Positions 43,803 through 51,538 of a stretch of DNA of 64,000 nucleotides are shown piece after piece. The stretch comes from Synechococcus sp. AG-679-B05. Lineage in GTDB: Bacteria > Cyanobacteriota > Cyanobacteriia > PCC-6307 > Cyanobiaceae. Numbering within the stretch: the first letter of the stretch is position 1; the number at the start of each line of letters is the position of its first letter. The notes below the pieces were generated by a model, which did no database searches, had not been told where the DNA came from, and saw only the letters and a list, made by a program, of their open reading frames with translations. The position numbers and the translations under genes are program-made. The stretch spans positions 3,539 through 67,538 of the forward strand of contig QCUJ01000005.1 in the NCBI GenBank assembly GCA_003210795.1. The letters run 5' to 3'.

Positions 43803-43876
43803 GCTCCCTTAGCTCAGCTGGATAGAGCAACTGCCTTCTAAGCAGTCGGTCGTCGGTTCGAATCCGCCAGGGGGCG
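43803..43876 (+). tRNA. tRNA-Arg (anticodon TCT)
   Basis: Acceptor GCTCCCT/AGGGGGC, D-arm GCTC/GAGC, anticodon arm ACTGC-CTTCTAA-GCAGT, T-loop TTCGAAT; one mismatch in the T-stem. Confidence 0.96.
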
Positions 43877-43890
43877 CTTGTCACATGAGA

Positions 43891-43935: not shown

Positions 43936-43959
43936 TTGTGGCCCAAATTGTGGCCCAAA
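43936..43959 (+). repeat. Perfect 12-bp tandem repeat TTGTGGCCCAAA x2 (candidate integrase arm sites)
   Basis: Read directly; lies 60 bp inside the island end. Confidence 0.75.
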
Positions 43960-44023
43960 GCGCCCTATCATTGGGTTGTCTCAAAGACTGGTTGTACCAG
44001 CGGATTTCAAGGGTTGAATGGCC

Positions 44024-44389
44024 ATGCCAAAAGCCACAGCAGCAGAGACCGCCGACCGCATCGAACAACTCCAGCGGATGATCCTGGCCGGGTCCAACAA
44101 CACCGAATGTTTCGCCTTTGCGAGACAAACATTGGGGGTGTCTAGGGCGCAGGGCTACAAGCTCGTGAAGCGGGCCTGGCAGCAGATTAAGCTCGACATC
44201 GATGAGACCGGCATCGACCGGCAAGAGCTGCTGTCGTGGTCAATCCAGACGCTCATCACCGCGTCAGGTCAAGCCATGAAGCAGAAGAACCCTGGCGCTG
44301 TGGCGTCCTGCATCCGCCAGCTCGATCACATGACCGGCACCGGATACAACAGCCAATGCGGCTACGGTTTCCACAGGCGCACCTACTGA
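44024..44389 (+). CDS. HTH protein resembling phage/satellite small terminase (TerS-like), copy 1
   Basis: HTH-like FARQTLGVSRAQGYKLVKRAW followed by helical C-terminus NPGAVASCIRQLDHMTG; paralog at 49128. ORF is solid; TerS label is inference. Confidence 0.7.
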   Translation: MPKATAAETADRIEQLQRMILAGSNNTECFAFARQTLGVSRAQGYKLVKRAWQQIKLDIDETGIDRQELLSWSIQTLITASGQAMKQKNPGAVASCIRQLDHMTGTGYNSQCGYGFHRRTY

Positions 44390-44904
44390 GTCGTCGCCAA
44401 GTTTTGCCATGAAACGCCTTCTTTTATTCGCTCTTTTGCAATAAGCTCCGGCGTTGGCTGCGCCAGTTGTTCTTGATTGCAAATCAGTTGCTCACTATGA
44501 CGGAGTAGTTGATTACCCGGAGAAGTTTGTAATCGATCTTTAAAATAGATCGATTGACCATTATTGGCCTGGGAATCCACTCTCCTCGCGATTTCATCAG
44601 GTTCCAATTATTCCAACAAGATTTAGTCGGGTGCTGAAAATTAGTGCTATTACGCCTACGACAATCAGTACTAATTTTTATACAATTGATCGCACAACCT
44701 TGATAGTTTATAGTAGATCTAAGACTAGTAGATGCCAGCTTGGTCTGACCTGCCTAAAGCGAAGTTTTGATAACGGCTTAAGCCGGCTTTCAAGCTTGTG
44801 TCTACGCTTTCATCTGCATAATCAAATTCTTGAGTTTTCCGGCAATCGCTTGCAAGAAATGATGCATGGGCTTATTTGTTTGAATTAGATTTTATGCATC
44901 GAAA

Positions 44905-45621
44905 TTGAAATTTGACTATTCAGGCTGGAGCTATGGAGGCCTTGTGCTCAAGGCCAAGGGAGGAGCTGGTCCAATCCCGATAATTACACCCGACGAATCT
45001 TCACTTGAGTATTCAAGTAGACACTTTTATATGGAAGGCAGGCTGAGAAGTGGTAGCGTTTCAGAGAATATTTATATAACCATGTATGGCGACTTTGACT
45101 TTACGACCGAGGAGAAGGCAAATAAGTCAACAGTAAACTCTTATGTAATCGTGACTGATAATTATGGCAGTGCGAGTTTGAGCAGGATGGGATCTTCGCT
45201 GGAAAGTATAATTGATGATCCTGCTTCCCTGAGGAAGAAGTGGCTTAGCAAGGACAATGACATTATTGGCACACCTGCCAATGACAAAATTGATGGATAC
45301 AAGGGAGATGATGAGATTATTGGTGGTGCTGGAAAAGACAAGTTGACTGGTGGTGAAGGCGATGATTATCTCGACGGGGGTGGAGATAAAGACATCTTAA
45401 AAGGAGGCAAGGGTTTAGACACTTTCGTTGTTAGGAATAGTGGTTCTGTCGTTATCAAAGATTTCAAAGAAGGCGAAGATTTAATCAAGCTGCGAGGTAC
45501 TTCGCTTTCGGATATATCGATAGTTCGTACAGGAAAGCACACATATATTGAGAATTTGGATGGCTACTGGCTTGCAAAGCTTAGGGGTTCGCTGATTCTG
45601 GACGATTCAGTTTTTGCTTAA
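44905..45621 (+). CDS. RTX-type calcium-binding repeat protein
   Basis: GGxGxD nonapeptide repeats (GYKGDD, GGAGKD, GGEGDD, GGKGLD) and DFKEGEDLI; start uncertain. Confidence 0.85.
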   Translation: MKFDYSGWSYGGLVLKAKGGAGPIPIITPDESSLEYSSRHFYMEGRLRSGSVSENIYITMYGDFDFTTEEKANKSTVNSYVIVTDNYGSASLSRMGSSLESIIDDPASLRKKWLSKDNDIIGTPANDKIDGYKGDDEIIGGAGKDKLTGGEGDDYLDGGGDKDILKGGKGLDTFVVRNSGSVVIKDFKEGEDLIKLRGTSLSDISIVRTGKHTYIENLDGYWLAKLRGSLILDDSVFA

Positions 45622-45707
45622 GCAACCAAAGGATCTTCATGAATGCATAGACCTGCTTTTTATCACTTTAATTGTATTAATATGTCTTAGCGGTCTTTCA
45701 TAAGCTC

Positions 45708-45794
45708 GCCTGCGCGAAGGCTTTCCGAACACTCTGCCGGCCTGAAGTTTAATAGCTGCGGGCATACGTCGTTATTGACGCATTGCTGGATAAG
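45708..45794 (+). pseudogene. Decayed 3' remnant of a third TerS-like gene plus its downstream flank
   Basis: 45761-45794 matches 49470-49503 at 31/34 nt; upstream reads AC....EHSAGLKFNS versus ACIRQLDHMTGTGYNS. Confidence 0.65.
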
Positions 45795-45812
45795 TCCCTT
45801 GAACAGTGTGGC

Positions 45813-45832
45813 GACGCAATACCGATTGCGAC
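45813..45832 (+). repeat. Dyad GACGCAA-TACCGA-TTGCGAC
   Basis: One of six copies in the island. Confidence 0.8.
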
Positions 45833-45953
45833 TGAAGTTTATAGCTGAAAACTTCTGCTTTTTTGTCTCTCCCTTGTTCTAATTGAATTTGGCTCCGTCA
45901 GAGGCTTGTGTAGCGTTGACCCGGGATTTTTAATTTGATTCACTTTGATATGG

Positions 45954-46396
45954 TTAAAGCCCCAGCGACTTCTTGCGAAGTTGTTGATACTCGTCTTCGC
46001 TGATAGCTCCACTATCACGCATTTCTTGGAGTTTTGTCAGATCAGCCTCGACTCCAGCGATATTGCCTGCCCCGATTGAACCGATCGGTCCTTGATCCTT
46101 AATCCCAGTGAGAATCTTCTGAGCAATTACATCGTTTTCATCCTTCACTCGCTTCTGAATGGTGAAGAGCTGAACAAGGGCAATAACCCCAGGAATAAGG
46201 TCCAGCAAAAAACTAAATAAATAACCGCTTTGTTGACGTTGCTGAGATAGAACTCATGAGCACCAATGCCTCCAGGAATCAGGCAAAGCAAAAGAGCTGT
46301 GGTGGGATCTTTCTTTTTGTCCTCATATCGACTGTTGAAGGACGCCTGCTGCGTCGGGGACAGCTGCTCGACCAGCTTCAAAGTCGATTCCTTCAT
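45954..46396 (-). pseudogene. TM2-domain + SHOCT membrane protein split by a 1-nt deletion
   Basis: KKDPTTALLLCLIPGGIGAHEFYL..FCWT in one frame; LIPGVIALVQL...LTKLQEMRDSGAISEDEYQQLRKKSL in another; junction near 46198. Confidence 0.8.
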
Positions 46397-46484
46397 CGTC
46401 AGTCGTTTGTCTTGAGTTTCTTCTAACAGCAGATTCGTTGATTGGGCTGGGCTTGATGTCGATTGCCTTGGTGCTTTAGTCCTC

Positions 46485-46535
46485 CGTGCTGCCGTGCTGT
46501 CGTGCTGTCGTGCTGTCGTGCTGTCGTGCTGTCGT
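46485..46535. repeat. 8-bp tandem repeat: CGTGCTGC + (CGTGCTGT)x5 + CGT
   Basis: Read directly. Confidence 0.95.
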
Positions 46536-46562
46536 AAAAACGGTTAAGGCAAGTCAGCGAAG

Positions 46563-46594
46563 GGGCTGGAGGCAATGCCCCCGCCCATTTTTTT
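46563..46594 (+). terminator. Candidate intrinsic terminator
   Basis: GGGCTGGAGGC-AAT-GCCCCCGCCC then A and T7; imperfect stem. Confidence 0.55.
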
Positions 46595-47039
46595 CATGAT
46601 AAAACACGCCCGGGAATTATTTAGACAAACATTGCTGTCAGCACAAACTACTTTTGCGGCCAGTTACCTATCCAAGGCAAGCAAAGAAAGGTCACCGAAA
46701 CTGTGAATAAAGATATACTTGCCATACTTATGCATGCTGATACAGGCAAAACATAATCTCTATTCTTTGGCGTAGATACAGGCATTTTCAAAGAACAACT
46801 TGCCTCATTAAATCATGACGCCTGTCCTTTAGGCGATCAATTACTGTCAACAATATGTCTTATTTGTATTTTATTTTATTCAGTTTTTATCATCGCTAAG
46901 TCTCATTTCCCCTTAGCACCACCATCCCAAGGCGATCGCTGCCCTCAAGGTCTTGGCACAGCTCATACGGCTGCTGAAGGTCAACTCATGACACCACGCG
47001 AAAACATCACGACTGACATCCAGCAGGTGCTGCTTGATG

Positions 47040-47273
47040 TCAGTCGGCATCACTCACCCTCAACTCAGGCCATCGGTCTAAACACTTGCTGAAGTCAATG
47101 TCCCAGCGTTCATCCTCGATGTTCTGATCACCATCCAGGAAGGCGTGGCAGGCCTCGAAATGAGTGTAGTTGGCGTAAGGGTCAGTACCAGGCCCATCAT
47201 CAGCCTTGGCAGCAGTTGGAACGAGACCCAGTCCAAGTGCCAAGAGCAGCCAGAAGAACTTCTTCACCATCAC
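47040..47273 (-). CDS. Small secreted acidic protein with two Cys
   Basis: Signal peptide KKFFWLLLALGLGLVPTAAKA followed by a 53-aa acidic mature part. Confidence 0.75.
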   Translation of the reverse strand: MMVKKFFWLLLALGLGLVPTAAKADDGPGTDPYANYTHFEACHAFLDGDQNIEDERWDIDFSKCLDRWPELRVSDAD

Positions 47274-47276
47274 TAT

Positions 47277-47369
47277 TCAGTCGTGCTGCGGTTTATCGCT
47301 GTAAAAAATGCTGACCATCACAAACAAGAAACCGCACAGAGGCAAAATAATCGGGTCGATCAAGGTCAA
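47277..47369 (-). CDS. Possible 30-aa membrane peptide
   Basis: TTG-start MTLIDPIILPLCGFLFVMVSIFYSDKPQHD ending 3 nt before the next gene. Confidence 0.3.
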   Translation of the reverse strand: MTLIDPIILPLCGFLFVMVSIFYSDKPQHD

Positions 47370-47725
47370 TATTCAGGTTTTCTATTGATAGGTGAGTAGA
47401 AATCAAATTGACCGAACTGGCACAGTCCACTTTTTGAAAAGCAAATCAAAACCGAATTAATACGGTCAAAAAGTGCCATCTTGTACCTGCCTAAGCTGGC
47501 CCATCAGAGAAGAGCGCAGTTAATCCACCTGAATCAATGCCAAATGCGAGACATAACGGATACGTGGCGGAAGAGGAGATGGGCTGGGCTCACGAAGCAA
47601 ACGGAATCGATTCTCCCGAGACTCCGAAAAAAGAATCAGCAACTCTGGAATAGACAAAAATAAAGAAGTGAAGTGTCTTTAGGCCGCCGACTACAAAGGC
47701 TGCATAGAGTATTACACCTCGAATT

Positions 47726-47790
47726 GACGTAATAACCGTGTTGCGACTGGAAGTTGTTGCGTCAGTTTTTGACGCAATAAAGCTTGCGAC
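47726..47790 (+). repeat. Compound site: two GACGYAA-N8/N6-TTGCGAC dyads plus an extra TTGCGTCA half-site
   Basis: 47726-47747 and 47771-47790 read directly. Confidence 0.8.
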
Positions 47791-47881
47791 AGTTTACTTG
47801 GAAAAGTAGTCTCATAAAGAAGAGTTGTCGCTTCAGCTGCACTTGGCTAGGACAGGAATATTCTTTTTTTCCGATTGAACG

Positions 47882-48208
47882 ATGCTGGCGCTCATCGTCA
47901 TTCCGCTAATGCTTGGCGCCTTTGGTTCAGGCGTTGTTATTTCTTTGTTCTCTCTTTATTTGGGATGGAGAACGGGGCCAAGGATTTCTAAAAATAATTT
48001 AATTTGCTTCTTAGGTGCTGCTTTGGGGGTATTTCTTTGGGTCACACTGTTATTACCTTTTACTGACACATCACTTACTGCGAATAACCTGGATGAACTG
48101 CCAATATTTTTGCTTTCTTTGGTTCTTATTGGAGCTACCCCCTTAGCGGCATTCCCTGCAATCTTGTTTTATGGCGGATCTGGCAAGAAAGCACGGATAC
48201 CTGAATAG
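47882..48208 (+). CDS. Hypothetical 3-TM membrane protein
   Basis: 108-aa hydrophobic ORF with ATG start, flanked by dyads. Confidence 0.65.
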   Translation: MLALIVIPLMLGAFGSGVVISLFSLYLGWRTGPRISKNNLICFLGAALGVFLWVTLLLPFTDTSLTANNLDELPIFLLSLVLIGATPLAAFPAILFYGGSGKKARIPE

Positions 48209-48247
48209 GCAAAAATATCCTGTAATACCGCTTGTGACCGTTTGCCT

Positions 48248-48269
48248 GACGTAAATCCGTTATTGCGAC
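48248..48269 (+). repeat. Dyad GACGTAA-ATCCGTTA-TTGCGAC
   Basis: Read directly. Confidence 0.8.
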
Positions 48270-48304
48270 TGATGCGGATGAATATGTCGTCAGAAAAGCT
48301 GCTT

Positions 48305-48793
48305 TCAGTTTGTCTTGGCTTGATGCTTTTCTGGTACTGGAAAGTTTCTGCCTATTGCTCTTGAATAGAGAATTGCCTTGCCTTGGACAATCCATTGGGC
48401 GAATGTATTGCTGTTCGGGCCAGGCCAGTATCTGTACTTATTGATGAATGGATAGGTTTCTGGAGAAGATTCAATTTTCTTGATTATCGAGACAGCCTCT
48501 TCATCTATCCATTTTTGAATTAATTGCGATGGCCCGTTGCCAACGCCTTGGTAGGGATCCAGAAGATTCTTATGAAGGTGGCCCCAGCATGAATCGTTGC
48601 AGTGGGCATGTTGCCATATTTCCCATCTATCACATTTATGAATCTTGTTGTCCTCAACGGTATGAAATACCAGTAGCCAATAGTGGTCGGCAAAGATTCC
48701 TGGAAAGCTGGGGATTTTTGCGGTGCGAAGCTCGACTCTGCCCAAGCTTGCCTCCTTAGGCAATTGTTCTTTTGCGAAGGCTAATTGCTTCAA
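48305..48793 (-). CDS. DUF3750-like protein
   Basis: FADHYW, DRWEIW, YPF..KYRYWPGPNSNTFAQW. Confidence 0.75.
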   Translation of the reverse strand: MKQLAFAKEQLPKEASLGRVELRTAKIPSFPGIFADHYWLLVFHTVEDNKIHKCDRWEIWQHAHCNDSCWGHLHKNLLDPYQGVGNGPSQLIQKWIDEEAVSIIKKIESSPETYPFINKYRYWPGPNSNTFAQWIVQGKAILYSRAIGRNFPVPEKHQAKTN

Positions 48794-48841
48794 GAGTGGT
48801 TGTCAGTTGCCTTCAGTTCCTCTTAATGAAGAAGAGGCAAT

Positions 48842-48912
48842 AAAAAGGAGGACGGTTACTCACCAGCCCCCCTATTATTGATTGCTAGGGGACCCCTCGC
48901 ACTTATATTTTA
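48842..48912 (-). promoter_or_regulatory. Candidate -10 box followed by a ~60-nt structured leader or sRNA with terminator
   Basis: Minus strand: TAAAAT (48912-48907), then GCGAGGGG-T-CCCCTAGC...TAGGGGGGCTGGT-GAGT-AACCGTCCTCC-T5. Confidence 0.5.
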
Positions 48913-48990
48913 GTATGGATTATTATTTATTTTTGGGTTGTTGCTTAGGGAAGCATCCCCTTATGAATGATCTCCTTTGAACTTCGGAAC

Positions 48991-49010
48991 GTCGCAACGG
49001 TTCTTGCGTC
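48991..49010 (-). repeat. Dyad in reverse orientation (GACGCAA-GAACCG-TTGCGAC on the minus strand)
   Basis: Plus strand GTCGCAACGGTTCTTGCGTC, ~120 bp upstream of TerS-like copy 2. Confidence 0.8.
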
Positions 49011-49127
49011 CACTCACCGGCGTTACCCCGACGCATTGCCCGACGTGTTGCCGTTTTTCACTGGGATCGTTTTGTTCACCCACCGCGAGCGGATCGCCCA
49101 CCTGCTGAACACGGAACCTGACTGGCC

Positions 49128-49487
49128 ATGGCACGAGCCACCGCAACAGAAACAGTGGAGCGGGTTGAACACCTCCAGGGAATGATCCTGGCCGGGCGGT
49201 CCAACACTGTTTGTCTCACTTTTATGAGACAAACGTGGGGGGTCTCCAGAGCACAGGGTTACCAGCTGCTCACGAAGGCGTGGGCGCAGCTCAAGGACGA
49301 CATCGACGAAGCCGGCATCGATCGGCAGGAGCTGCTGTCGTGGTCAATCCAGACGTTAATGGCCGCGGCTGGTCAGGCAAAGCAGCAGAAAAATCCTGGA
49401 GCTGTGGTGGCCTGCATTCGCCAGCTCGATCACATGACCGGTACTGGATACAACAGCCATCGCGGTCATGGCATGCGTCGTTATTGA
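49128..49487 (+). CDS. HTH protein resembling small terminase (TerS-like), copy 2
   Basis: Shares GVSRAQGY, GIDRQELLSWSIQTL, QKNPGAV and CIRQLDHMTGTGYNS with copy 1. Confidence 0.7.
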   Translation: MARATATETVERVEHLQGMILAGRSNTVCLTFMRQTWGVSRAQGYQLLTKAWAQLKDDIDEAGIDRQELLSWSIQTLMAAAGQAKQQKNPGAVVACIRQLDHMTGTGYNSHRGHGMRRY

Positions 49488-49531
49488 CGCATAGCTGGAT
49501 AGGGTCCGCAGAACTTTGGTCCAGCTCAGCC

Positions 49532-49726
49532 GTGATCAAGAACCCGATTCTTCAAAAGGCTTGGAAGGTCATCACCTGGCGGTGGCGGCTGCAGCTTGCC
49601 ATCAATGCGCCCTTTGGACTGCTTTGGTTGGCAGACAAGACCAACCCGACTGTGCATGCCTTTGATATGTCAGTGCTTGTGGCACTTCATGCCGAGTGGC
49701 TCGCTCCAATGATGGGTATTGCTTGA
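49532..49726 (+). CDS. Small hypothetical protein
   Basis: GTG-start MIKNPILQKAWKVITWRWRLQLAINAPF...EWLAPMMGIA directly after copy 2. Confidence 0.55.
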   Translation: MIKNPILQKAWKVITWRWRLQLAINAPFGLLWLADKTNPTVHAFDMSVLVALHAEWLAPMMGIA

Positions 49727-49864
49727 GTGCACAGACGCCCGAACGCGGCTGTGAAGTAATGAGGCATGTGTCTCGCAGCACCGGCGTCGCCCTCGTCCCC
49801 ATCAGGGTCCCGACACCAAGCACCACGAGCACCAAAAGCAGCATCCACTTCATCGTTAATCCCC

Positions 49865-49955
49865 AAAAAAGCCTCCCTTGAAGGAGGCGATGGAAGCTTG
49901 AGGTCACATGGTGAGGACTTCAGCTGGTGGTGGATCAACAGGTCAGTGAGCCCTC
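49865..49955 (-). ncRNA. Candidate small RNA ending in a strong intrinsic terminator
   Basis: Minus strand GCCTCC-TTCAAG-GGAGGC-T6 at 49888-49865 with no convincing gene directly upstream; 5' end is a guess. Confidence 0.35.
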
Positions 49956-49963
49956 ACTCGTTT

Positions 49964-49983
49964 GACGTAACTGCACTTGCGCC
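49964..49983 (+). repeat. Degenerate dyad GACGTAA-CTGCAC-TTGCGCC
   Basis: One mismatch from consensus. Confidence 0.6.
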
Positions 49984-51211: not shown

Positions 51212-51454
51212 ATGCCGATTCCCTGGGGTGATCACCTCGACATGGCCAGATGCGTCGAGGTGCTGGGGGAATACGACCTGAGGGAAGCCACCACCGCGAT
51301 GGGTCGATGCCTGTTCCACCTGCAGCGGGACCTGATGCTCGAAACCTGGAGAGAGCAACTGCCGACCAAGCAGTTGGTCGCGTTTGCAAATAAGGCCCCT
51401 GAAATGCAAACAATTCTGCAAACTCAGTCGGAGCAATGCCCCATAGAACCCTGA
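51212..51454 (+). CDS. Hypothetical protein
   Basis: 80-aa ATG ORF with GC-rich codon usage at the island's right end. Confidence 0.5.
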   Translation: MPIPWGDHLDMARCVEVLGEYDLREATTAMGRCLFHLQRDLMLETWREQLPTKQLVAFANKAPEMQTILQTQSEQCPIEP

Positions 51455-51488
51455 CTAGAACTGAAATCTGGCGCATTATGCAATCTGT

Positions 51489-51538
51489 CTTCTAAGCAGT
51501 CGGTCGATGGTTCGAATCCATCAGGGGGCGTTTGTCAC
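51489..51538 (+). repeat. Duplicated 3' half of tRNA-Arg (att-site direct repeat)
   Basis: CTTCTAAGCAGTCGGTCG identical to 43835-43852; then GGTTCGAATCC, CAGGGGGCG and TTGTCAC are shared. Confidence 0.93.

What the first reader, a model, noticed from the sequence alone, without database searches (positions are those of the whole stretch)
45813..49983. Six copies of an asymmetric dyad GACGYAA-N6/N8-TTGCGAC clustered in the island
Seen: 45813 (N6), 47726 (N8), 47771 (N6), 48248 (N8), 48991 (N6, reversed) and 49964 (N6, one mismatch). All lie outside credible genes, with conserved arms and variable spacers. The two N8 copies (both TGACGTAA...TTGCGACTG, each followed by a CGTCAG that can pair back) flank the single gene 47882-48208 as direct repeats, like a cassette. 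I did not notice the motif in the 43-kb core part, though that scan was by eye. Known: inverted arms around 6-8-bp spacers typify tyrosine-recombinase core sites, and multi-subsite arrays typify resolvase res sites. Inference: cassette recombination sites, or operators/pac sites for the TerS-like proteins.
Basis: partly seen in the sequence, partly recalled or inferred. Interest (0 to 1): 0.8.

Follow-up and report, generated by a model that had tools for sequence, protein, structure and literature searches.

The report
Cassette-swap sites in Synechococcus islands
A short repeated DNA signal marks the exact points where single genes are present or missing in mobile islands of marine Synechococcus, and it is likely the target of an island-borne Xer-like recombinase, which would give these islands their own integron-like way of swapping genes.

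Summary
The motif is real: 5 exact copies plus one 1-mismatch copy. All exact copies in the 1.88-Mb assembly lie in one 7.65-kb element integrated at tRNA-Arg(TCT). Relatives give the consensus TT-GACGYAA-N6-TTRCGAC-TG. The sites are breakpoints. Contigs from 3 of 8 seawater runs (2 studies) lack exactly the 448 bp between the N6 site at 47771 and a degenerate N6 site at 48219. In relatives, flanks swap at the sites (45 of 92 against 14.7 expected) and single genes fill slots between direct sites. The best candidate enzyme is a 361-aa Xer-like tyrosine recombinase carried by related tmRNA-island elements beside their real integrase. It occurs in 12 of 16 motif-positive and 21 of 385 motif-negative genomes. 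No canonical XerC was found in the 10 hosts tested. Unexplained: copies kept by codon choice inside integrase and primase genes. The enzyme is not shown; this window's element encodes none. Verdict: likely a pdif/integron-like cassette system in tycheposon-like elements; not found in my searches.

The parts
43803..43877 (+). tRNA-Arg(TCT), integration target (attL)
43936..43959 (+). Direct doublet of TTGTGGCCCAAA just inside attL; likely arm-type site of the (absent) tRNA integrase, unrelated to the dyad
   Evidence: sequence; analogous doublets in tmRNA elements
44018..44389 (+). terS-like gene copy 1 (HTH plus helical hairpin)
   Evidence: the model and fold searches were run on copy 2
44905..45621 (+). 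Cargo gene with RTX Ca-binding repeats
45761..45792 (+). Copy of the terS-like 3' end with a left arm (half-site); 94% identical to 49470-49501
   Evidence: D12
45813..45832 (+). N6 site, spacer taccga
45954..46396 (-). TM2 and SHOCT ORFs (overlapping, possibly one frameshifted gene) between inverted sites 45813 and 46531
46531..46550 (-). Degenerate N6 site next to an 8-bp tandem repeat
47699..47718 (+). Degenerate N6 site 7 bp before the N8 dyad (better match in population variants)
   Evidence: same layout in L047/L380
47726..47747 (+). N8 dyad, first part of the compound unit N8 - 9 bp - single arm - 7 bp - N6
   Evidence: loose end at 47732
47757..47763 (-). Single extra arm (accessory position) of the compound unit
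47771..47790 (+). N6 site (spacer taaagc), left boundary of the cassette
   Evidence: joint 47787 to 48236
47788..48235 (+). 448-bp cassette present or absent in wild populations; carries the 108-aa hydrophobic ORF 47882-48208
48219..48238 (+). Degenerate N6 site (spacer taccgc), right boundary of the cassette
48248..48269 (+). N8 dyad; its right arm is joined to other left flanks through N6 spacers in relatives
   Evidence: (loose end 48263)
48305..48793 (-). DUF3750 cargo gene
48967..49185 (+). Conserved small ORF of the X-Y-small-terS operon; contains the 48991 site
48991..49010 (-). N6 site inside the small ORF; breakpoint in relatives L075 and L108
49128..49487 (+). terS-like gene copy 2; its stop codon lies in a left arm (half-site at 49486)
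49964..49983 (+). N6 site with one mismatch
51485..51538 (+). Repeat of the tRNA-Arg 3' part (attR), 89% identical
   Evidence: D4

Best explanation
The dyads mark the points at which single-gene modules are gained, lost or exchanged in tRNA/tmRNA-integrated elements of marine Synechococcus, and they are likely the core sites of an element-encoded Xer-like tyrosine recombinase (361 aa, 'YR361') that would act here in trans or acted in a donor element. Shown: (a) two 7-9-bp inverted arms around a free 6-bp spacer; (b) precise presence/absence of a 448-bp gene unit between two direct N6 sites in this window; (c) flank exchange and slot-like arrays of direct sites in relatives; (d) complete relatives are built attL(tmRNA) - YR361 - X - Y - small ORF - terS-like - cargo - primase - xis - YR435 - attR, with a second integrase (YR435) and different, doublet-type arm sites at the ends. 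Inferred: YR361 binds the arms and cuts at the spacer edges; cassettes move by excision/insertion or by double crossover between related elements at sites with similar spacers; the N8-arm-N6 unit is a core site with accessory arms; copies inside backbone genes likely serve multimer resolution or backbone swapping between tandem elements. The window's element is a non-autonomous remnant (no integrase, no primase) that took a site-bearing block from the tmRNA-type family.
For: Joint 47787 to 48236 in runs X4, X2 (same study) and X7 (second study, 40 letters on the short side), 3 of 8 runs laid. 5 of 9 loose ends fall in or at sites; two continue as complete N6 sites with new spacers, one as an N8 site with a new left arm. 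Alignment ends within 12 bp at 45 of 92 sites against 14.7 +/- 3.4 (maximum 24) at shifted positions. ORF stops at a site 24 of 39 against other stops 64 of 275, p=4e-6. One 1.3-kb cassette sits at two loci of G082 with different outer flanks. Different genes occupy the slots beside spacer aacagc in G034, L072 and G003. The TGA in the left arm closes an open frame of 80 codons or more at 11 of 45 sites against 5.9% background. Exact matches have spacer 6 (24) or 8 (4), none at other lengths of 3-12. YR361 is closest to XerA/XerC/XerD with all catalytic residues. It occurs in 12 of 16 motif-positive and 21 of 385 motif-negative genomes. It is the only TIGR02224 hit in G004 and G034. A site lies within 250 bp of its stop in 10 of 21 clade-A against 1 of 14 clade-B copies, and the clades differ in the predicted recognition helices. 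In G112 and G324 the YR361 gene itself lies between two direct sites. Close YR435 homologues were not found in G000, G004, G005 or G034, which have sites.
Against: No binding or activity is shown. No circle junction (go-back joint at a site) appeared in 8 runs of contigs (contigs drop rare forms). Co-occurrence does not single out YR361: close terS-like genes occur in 13 of 16 motif-positive and 20 of 385 motif-negative genomes. The only YR361 seen in this genome is the clade-B type, cut by a contig end. G082 has a moved cassette but no YR361 hit. 10 of 21 clade-A loci show no site scoring 17 or more in the stretch downstream, up to 6 kb. Sites are kept inside integrase and primase genes by synonymous codons, which a pure cassette-boundary model does not need. 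Spacers of neighbouring direct sites share only about 2 of 6 bases, and the left-edge homology test is not significant (p=0.07). Kin are not independent in any of the cross-genome counts.
Confidence: 0.6

Rival explanations
1. The dyads are distributed binding sites (stoperator-like silencers or packaging marks) for a small HTH protein of the element, such as the terS-like protein. Breakpoints collect there only because repeated 7-bp arms give microhomology.
For: Sites recur about every 1.1 kb (median gap) along whole elements, including 1-3 per primase gene and one over the catalytic Arg of YR435. In each gene the only invariant Leu read TTR in all homologues (1 of 17, 1 of 18) is the one in the site. 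One copy sits about 120 bp upstream of terS-like and another at its stop. The terS-like protein has a conserved HTH and co-occurs as well as YR361.
Against: 13 of 25 terS-like copies at 60% identity or more have no site within 4 kb, including copies with the same recognition helix as a 4-site element. A 34%-identical terS-like with a different helix sits among 5 sites. Tight one-gene slots and stop codons built into the left arm fit recombination design better.
Confidence: 0.17
2. The sites are tyrosine-recombinase sites, but the enzyme is another one: the YR435 integrase, the 190-aa catalytic-domain-only recombinases common in these islands, or a helper-phage enzyme.
For: The elements richest in sites carry the close YR435 clade. 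A 190-aa recombinase lies near sites in L051, and G000 and G082 have similar short ones.
Against: YR435 has a different att core and doublet arm sites and was not found in G000, G004, G005 or G034. G004 and G034 show only YR361 as Xer-like. Only 2 of 120 viral loci with one exact match had a second site, and none hit the element genes.
Confidence: 0.13
3. The arrays are res sites of a serine resolvase, with the N8-arm-N6 unit as the subsites.
For: The compound unit has a fixed layout in 7 relatives. Tycheposons list a small serine recombinase among hallmark genes (Hackl preprint, section 4).
Against: No PF00239 hit lies near the site clusters, and complete G004 (which has the compound unit) and G005 have none. 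Most sites are lone dyads. Whole spacers travel with one flank, which points to cuts at the edges, not the centre.
Confidence: 0.04
4. The sites are pdif-like copies of a host chromosomal dif site used by host XerC/D.
For: A 6-bp spacer between AA and TT and a module-like layout, as in pdif sites (PMC13141974, passages).
Against: No match to the relaxed pattern in complete G002, G016 and G029. No XerC over the cut-off in 10 of 10 genomes tested, and no hit at all in G030 and G042.
Confidence: 0.02

Closest known systems
pdif / dif modules of Acinetobacter plasmids (XerC/D)
   Same: Two arms around a variable 6-bp spacer; single-gene modules between sites; module replacement between similar spacers (PMC13141974, passages read).
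   Different: Arms are 7-9 bp and near-symmetric. Neighbouring sites are mostly direct (30 direct, 17 inverted) rather than alternating. The hosts show no canonical XerC or conserved dif copy. The candidate enzyme is a single element-borne recombinase. The sites lie in chromosomal islands, some inside genes.
Integrons (IntI, attI, attC)
   Same: A tyrosine recombinase next to an array of direct sites separating single, often secreted-looking ORFs.
   Different: Sites are 20 bp, lack the attC end motifs and long hairpin (attC features recalled). YR361 scores 45-49 bits against an IntI cut-off of 265 and matches only its C-terminal box. The array lies 3' of the recombinase gene.
Tycheposons / PICI-like tycheposons (Hackl et al., bioRxiv 10.1101/2020.12.28.424599; Grebert et al., PMC8995045)
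   Same: tRNA-Arg(TCT) and tmRNA targets, integrase at one end, xis, primase/helicase, terS-like gene, 8-12 kb size. Integrase at the distal end, as Grebert describes for Synechococcus.
   Different: Two unrelated tyrosine recombinases and internal recombination-like sites. terS-like elements carry cargo, which the preprint says it never observed. The preprint proposes imprecise excision for island material and names no internal sites in the passages I read.
TnpI / IRS of Tn4430
   Same: A simple tyrosine recombinase with a core dyad plus accessory copies, like the N8-arm-N6 unit (search listing and abstract start of PMC2847244; site layout recalled).
   Different: One resolution site per transposon there; many heterospecific sites and cassettes here.
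Mycobacteriophage stoperators
   Same: Many copies of one asymmetric site spread over an element (PMC9283540, abstract start and passages).
   Different: These are dyads with a free spacer, and they coincide with precise gene gain and loss.

Membership tests
pdif / XerCD dif modules | Two binding arms separated by a 6-bp spacer | tested here: met
   exact matches N6 24, N8 4, other lengths 0; consensus
pdif / XerCD dif modules | Host encodes XerC and XerD and a matching chromosomal dif | tested here: not met
   0 of 10 genomes over the TIGR02224 cut-off; no copy in 3 of 5 complete genomes. The XerD model itself was not searched genome-wide
pdif / XerCD dif modules | Alternating inverted sites around each module | tested here: not met
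   30 adjacent pairs direct, 17 inverted (orientation is uncertain for near-palindromic copies)
pdif / XerCD dif modules | Crossovers inside the sites | tested here: met
   (genomic and metagenomic junctions, no assay)
Integron | IntI-family integrase | tested here: not met
   TIGR02249 45-49 bits against cut-off 265; best hits are Xer models
Integron | attC sites (long imperfect hairpin with conserved ends) | tested here: not met
   20-bp sites; folding z of -0.7 to -2.6; attC definition recalled
Integron | Array of single-gene cassettes between direct sites beside the recombinase gene | tested here: met
   L049, L072, L051, L294, L387
Integron | Circular cassette intermediates | tested here: inconclusive
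   none among joints of 8 runs, but contigs drop rare forms
Tycheposon | Integrated at a tRNA/tmRNA with att repeat at the far end | tested here: met
Tycheposon | Inward-facing integrase and replication module | tested here: not met
   absent from the window's element; present in complete relatives L052, L288, L297
Tycheposon | Integrase belongs to the tycheposon YR clade; hallmark profiles match | not testable with these tools
   the profiles are in bioRxiv supplements, not seen
PICI-like satellite | Bona fide terminase small subunit | tested here: inconclusive
   HTH plus helical hairpin model, pLDDT 86; Atlas leads PF13022 and DUF2280 at 0.87-0.88; G20C TerS Z 6.2, rmsd 8.7, 95 aligned; no Foldseek PDB hit
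Serine resolvase res site | Adjacent resolvase gene | tested here: not met
Xer-like tyrosine recombinase (YR361) | SAM-like core-binding domain plus R-K-H-R-H-Y catalytic residues | tested here: met
Xer-like tyrosine recombinase (YR361) | Binds and recombines this dyad | not testable with these tools
   needs an assay

The most novel reading that the evidence does not exclude
Marine Synechococcus satellites carry a third kind of gene-cassette system, neither integron nor pdif. A single element-borne Xer-like recombinase acts on heterospecific 20-bp sites written about every kilobase along the element, even inside its integrase and primase genes. Cargo genes and backbone modules are thereby swapped between elements by programmed site-specific recombination, in hosts that lack XerCD.
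Probability: 0.45. Interest if true: 0.88.

Novelty: new variant of a known kind. Interest (0 to 1): 0.74.

Why it matters
How islands of picocyanobacteria acquire and shuffle single genes is an open question; the tycheposon preprint invokes imprecise excision for island material and notes swapping of integrases and replication genes, without naming a mechanism in the passages read. A defined site plus a named candidate enzyme makes this directly testable. It gives a role to the second recombinase of tmRNA elements, and it provides a motif for mining cassette genes (many secreted-looking and of unknown function) from ocean metagenomes. If active, it is also a compact recombinase with many spacer variants for cassette exchange in cyanobacteria.

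Tried and rejected
Chance or composition: rejected. Coding by-product of the small ORF: rejected as a general explanation, since most copies are intergenic and intragenic ones use rarer codons. Structured RNA: only the tRNA in Rfam. Promoter or terminator role: promoter matches at chance level, 4 against 5.6. Phage distribution: the viral scan gave 120 loci, mostly single chance matches; terS-like and YR361 relatives were not found in viral contigs, and phage records gave only about 30% hits. A clade-B-specific dyad: the best candidate (ATCAA-N8-TTGAT, 5 loci) is partly terS coding sequence and does not survive multiple testing by my estimate. Spacer avoidance within elements: 0 of 101 pairs share 5 or more bases against 40 of 2455 between elements, not significant. 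A left-edge spacer homology seen fell to p=0.07 after removing duplicates. The single-sequence fold was poor and was replaced by the alignment fold. Complex prediction was not used, as it cannot take DNA. Literature searches found no description of this motif; subscription journals, including the final tycheposon paper, and bioRxiv supplements were not seen.
Full report
Observation. The pattern has 5 exact matches in the window and none in 100 shuffles; the 49964 copy has one mismatch. All 5 exact matches of the 1.88-Mb, 77%-complete assembly lie between 45813 and 49010. They sit in a 7.65-kb element bounded by tRNA-Arg(TCT) at 43803-43877 and a repeat of its 3' part at 51485-51538. The element has two terS-like genes and cargo but no integrase or primase. 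Named homologue records are marine Synechococcus.

The site. In 544 kb of related loci, exact matches had spacer 6 (24) or 8 (4) and no other length from 3 to 12 (7 of these loci were fetched because of the motif). The consensus from 85 distinct sites is TT-GACGYAA-N6-TTRCGAC-TG, with a nearly free spacer; there were 82 different spacers among 99 junction types. An arm PWM trained on these loci gave 113 N6, 9 N8 and 5 other hits at score 18 or more in 1.08 Mb (overlapping loci included), against 1, 2 and 1 after shuffling. Exact N6 sites occur in 16 of 401 family genomes, in 5 of 46 genera. N8 dyads mostly belong to a fixed unit: N8, 9 bp, one extra arm, 7 bp, N6. It is seen at 47726-47790 and in L083, L098, L127, L299, L380 (twice) and L381.

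The sites are breakpoints. In the window, contigs of runs X4 and X2 (one study) and X7 (another study) join 47787 to 48236, skipping 448 bases; this was seen in 3 of the 8 runs laid, and the X4 and X2 joints have only 27 letters on the short side. The unit removed runs from the right arm of the N6 site at 47771 to the right arm of a degenerate N6 site at 48219-48238 and holds the 108-aa gene. The cassette is therefore bounded by N6 sites, not by the N8 pair. In one search, 5 of 9 loose ends lie in or at sites. Two continue as complete N6 sites with new spacers, built on the left arm of 47726 or the right arm of 48248, and one as an N8 site with a new left arm.

Across relatives, alignment ends fall within 12 bp of 45 of 92 sites against 14.7 +/- 3.4 at shifted positions. 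With a gene-boundary control the figures are 24 of 39 against 64 of 275. 46 site pairs share one flank only (redundant). 9 of 11 repeated left flanks and 14 of 18 repeated right flanks have more than one partner; by eye about 7 and 9 remain after dropping diverged homologues. A 1.3-kb cassette stands at two loci of G082 with different outer flanks. Of 40 distinct intervals between adjacent direct sites, many hold one ORF filling the slot, often with a signal-peptide-like start by eye; 4 end with their stop codon inside the next left arm. Different genes fill the slots on either side of spacer aacagc in G034, L072 and G003. Whole spacers travel with the left flank in some pairs and with the right flank in others, as expected for staggered cuts at both spacer edges (inference from tyrosine-recombinase chemistry). 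Spacers of neighbouring direct sites share about 2 of 6 bases, so strict spacer identity is either not needed or decays.

Which element and enzyme. Complete relatives (L052, L288; L297 without the first gene) read: tmRNA attL, YR361, X, Y, small ORF, terS-like, cargo, primase, xis, YR435, attR. The att core and the TTCCGACAA-type doublets inside both ends differ from the dyad. This agrees with an earlier scan note (e1-2656108) that YR435 is the integrase and YR361 has no known role. YR361 is Xer-like with an intact catalytic set and is not IntI. It occurs in 12 of 16 motif-positive and 21 of 385 motif-negative genomes of the same sample. It splits into two clades with different predicted recognition helices. 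A site lies within 250 bp of the stop in 10 of 21 clade-A and 1 of 14 clade-B copies (G002 left out, G108 moved to B by eye; p=0.02, shared descent not corrected). Density is 27 sites in 112 kb against 4 in 61 kb. In G112 and G324 the gene is itself flanked by direct sites. Canonical XerC was not found in 10 of 10 genomes, and YR361 is the only hit in G004 and G034. There is no conserved chromosomal copy of the site, and resolvases are not linked.

Results against. Close terS-like genes co-occur equally well, in 13 of 16 against 20 of 385 genomes. This genome's only visible YR361 is clade B and truncated. G082 lacks YR361. Sites recur at a median 1.1 kb along complete elements, including at three homologous positions of the primase and over the catalytic Arg of YR435. 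With third positions near saturation (identity 0.34-0.50, one pair 0.73), the only invariant Leu encoded TTR in all homologues is the one in the site (1 of 17 and 1 of 18); the same holds for Gln CAA (1 of 2, 1 of 4). These copies are under selection and do not bound cassettes. They fit a distributed operator or packaging mark, or silent recombination between sister or tandem elements. Against terS-like as binder, 13 of 25 copies at 60% identity or more have no site within 4 kb, while a 34%-identical copy with another recognition helix has 5 (33 loci chosen by me, 30 rows returned). Its identity as TerS is itself inconclusive.

Comparison. The system works like pdif modules (6-bp spacer, module replacement; PMC13141974, passages) and is laid out like an integron array, but it fails the defining tests of both. 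The carrier resembles PICI-like tycheposons (Hackl preprint, passages and the first part of section 4; Grebert PMC8995045, passages), yet it has cargo, two recombinases and internal sites not mentioned in what I read. Stoperators (PMC9283540, abstract start and passages) model the main rival; TnpI/IRS (PMC2847244, listing and abstract start only) models the accessory arms. Ten literature searches did not find the motif. The Hackl supplements and the final journal version were not seen and could mention YR361 or the site.

Verdict. The feature is real and the breakpoints are shown. Site-specific recombination by YR361 is the likeliest mechanism (0.6). New variant of a known kind; interest 0.74.

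Noticed in passing
window 46485-46532: Six-copy 8-bp tandem repeat running directly off the right arm of the degenerate site at 46531(-); a contig with 32 bp fewer exists in run X6.
   Followed up: partly
window 45954-46396 (-): TM2 and SHOCT ORFs overlap around a homopolymer run and may be one frameshifted gene.
   Followed up: no
window 44018-44389; L020, L021, L023, L041, L057-L060: terS-like genes often sit directly behind tRNA-Arg(TCT), tRNA-Val(TAC) or tRNA-Ala with no integrase between; the family has over 1000 clusters in marine metagenomes and 106 of 401 family genomes.
   Followed up: partly
window 51346-51380: A third, partial copy of the tRNA-Arg segment (86% over 35 nt) inside ORF 51212-51454, a possible older att scar.
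   Followed up: no
L049:6620-6730 and other tmRNA loci: The longest YR361 frame begins inside the tmRNA att core, and its first ~33 codons cover the arm-type doublet; copies in G112 and G324 start at about residue 34, so the true start is probably later.
   Followed up: partly
L299, L381, L127: The N8-arm-N6 unit abuts the 3' end of an AAA_25 helicase gene, suggesting a second element type or an origin/resolution role.
   Followed up: no
L209, L152: Two viral contigs carry two dyads each (230 bp and 1.1 kb apart) without any element marker gene in the fetched stretch.
   Followed up: no
window 44086-49226: Contigs of X1 and X4 join the two terS-like copies with 35 other letters between; probably another paralogue rather than a deletion.
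   Followed up: no
L291:6904-10577: A psbA-type and a phycobilisome-linker gene lie beside a site-bearing element remnant in G153.
   Followed up: no
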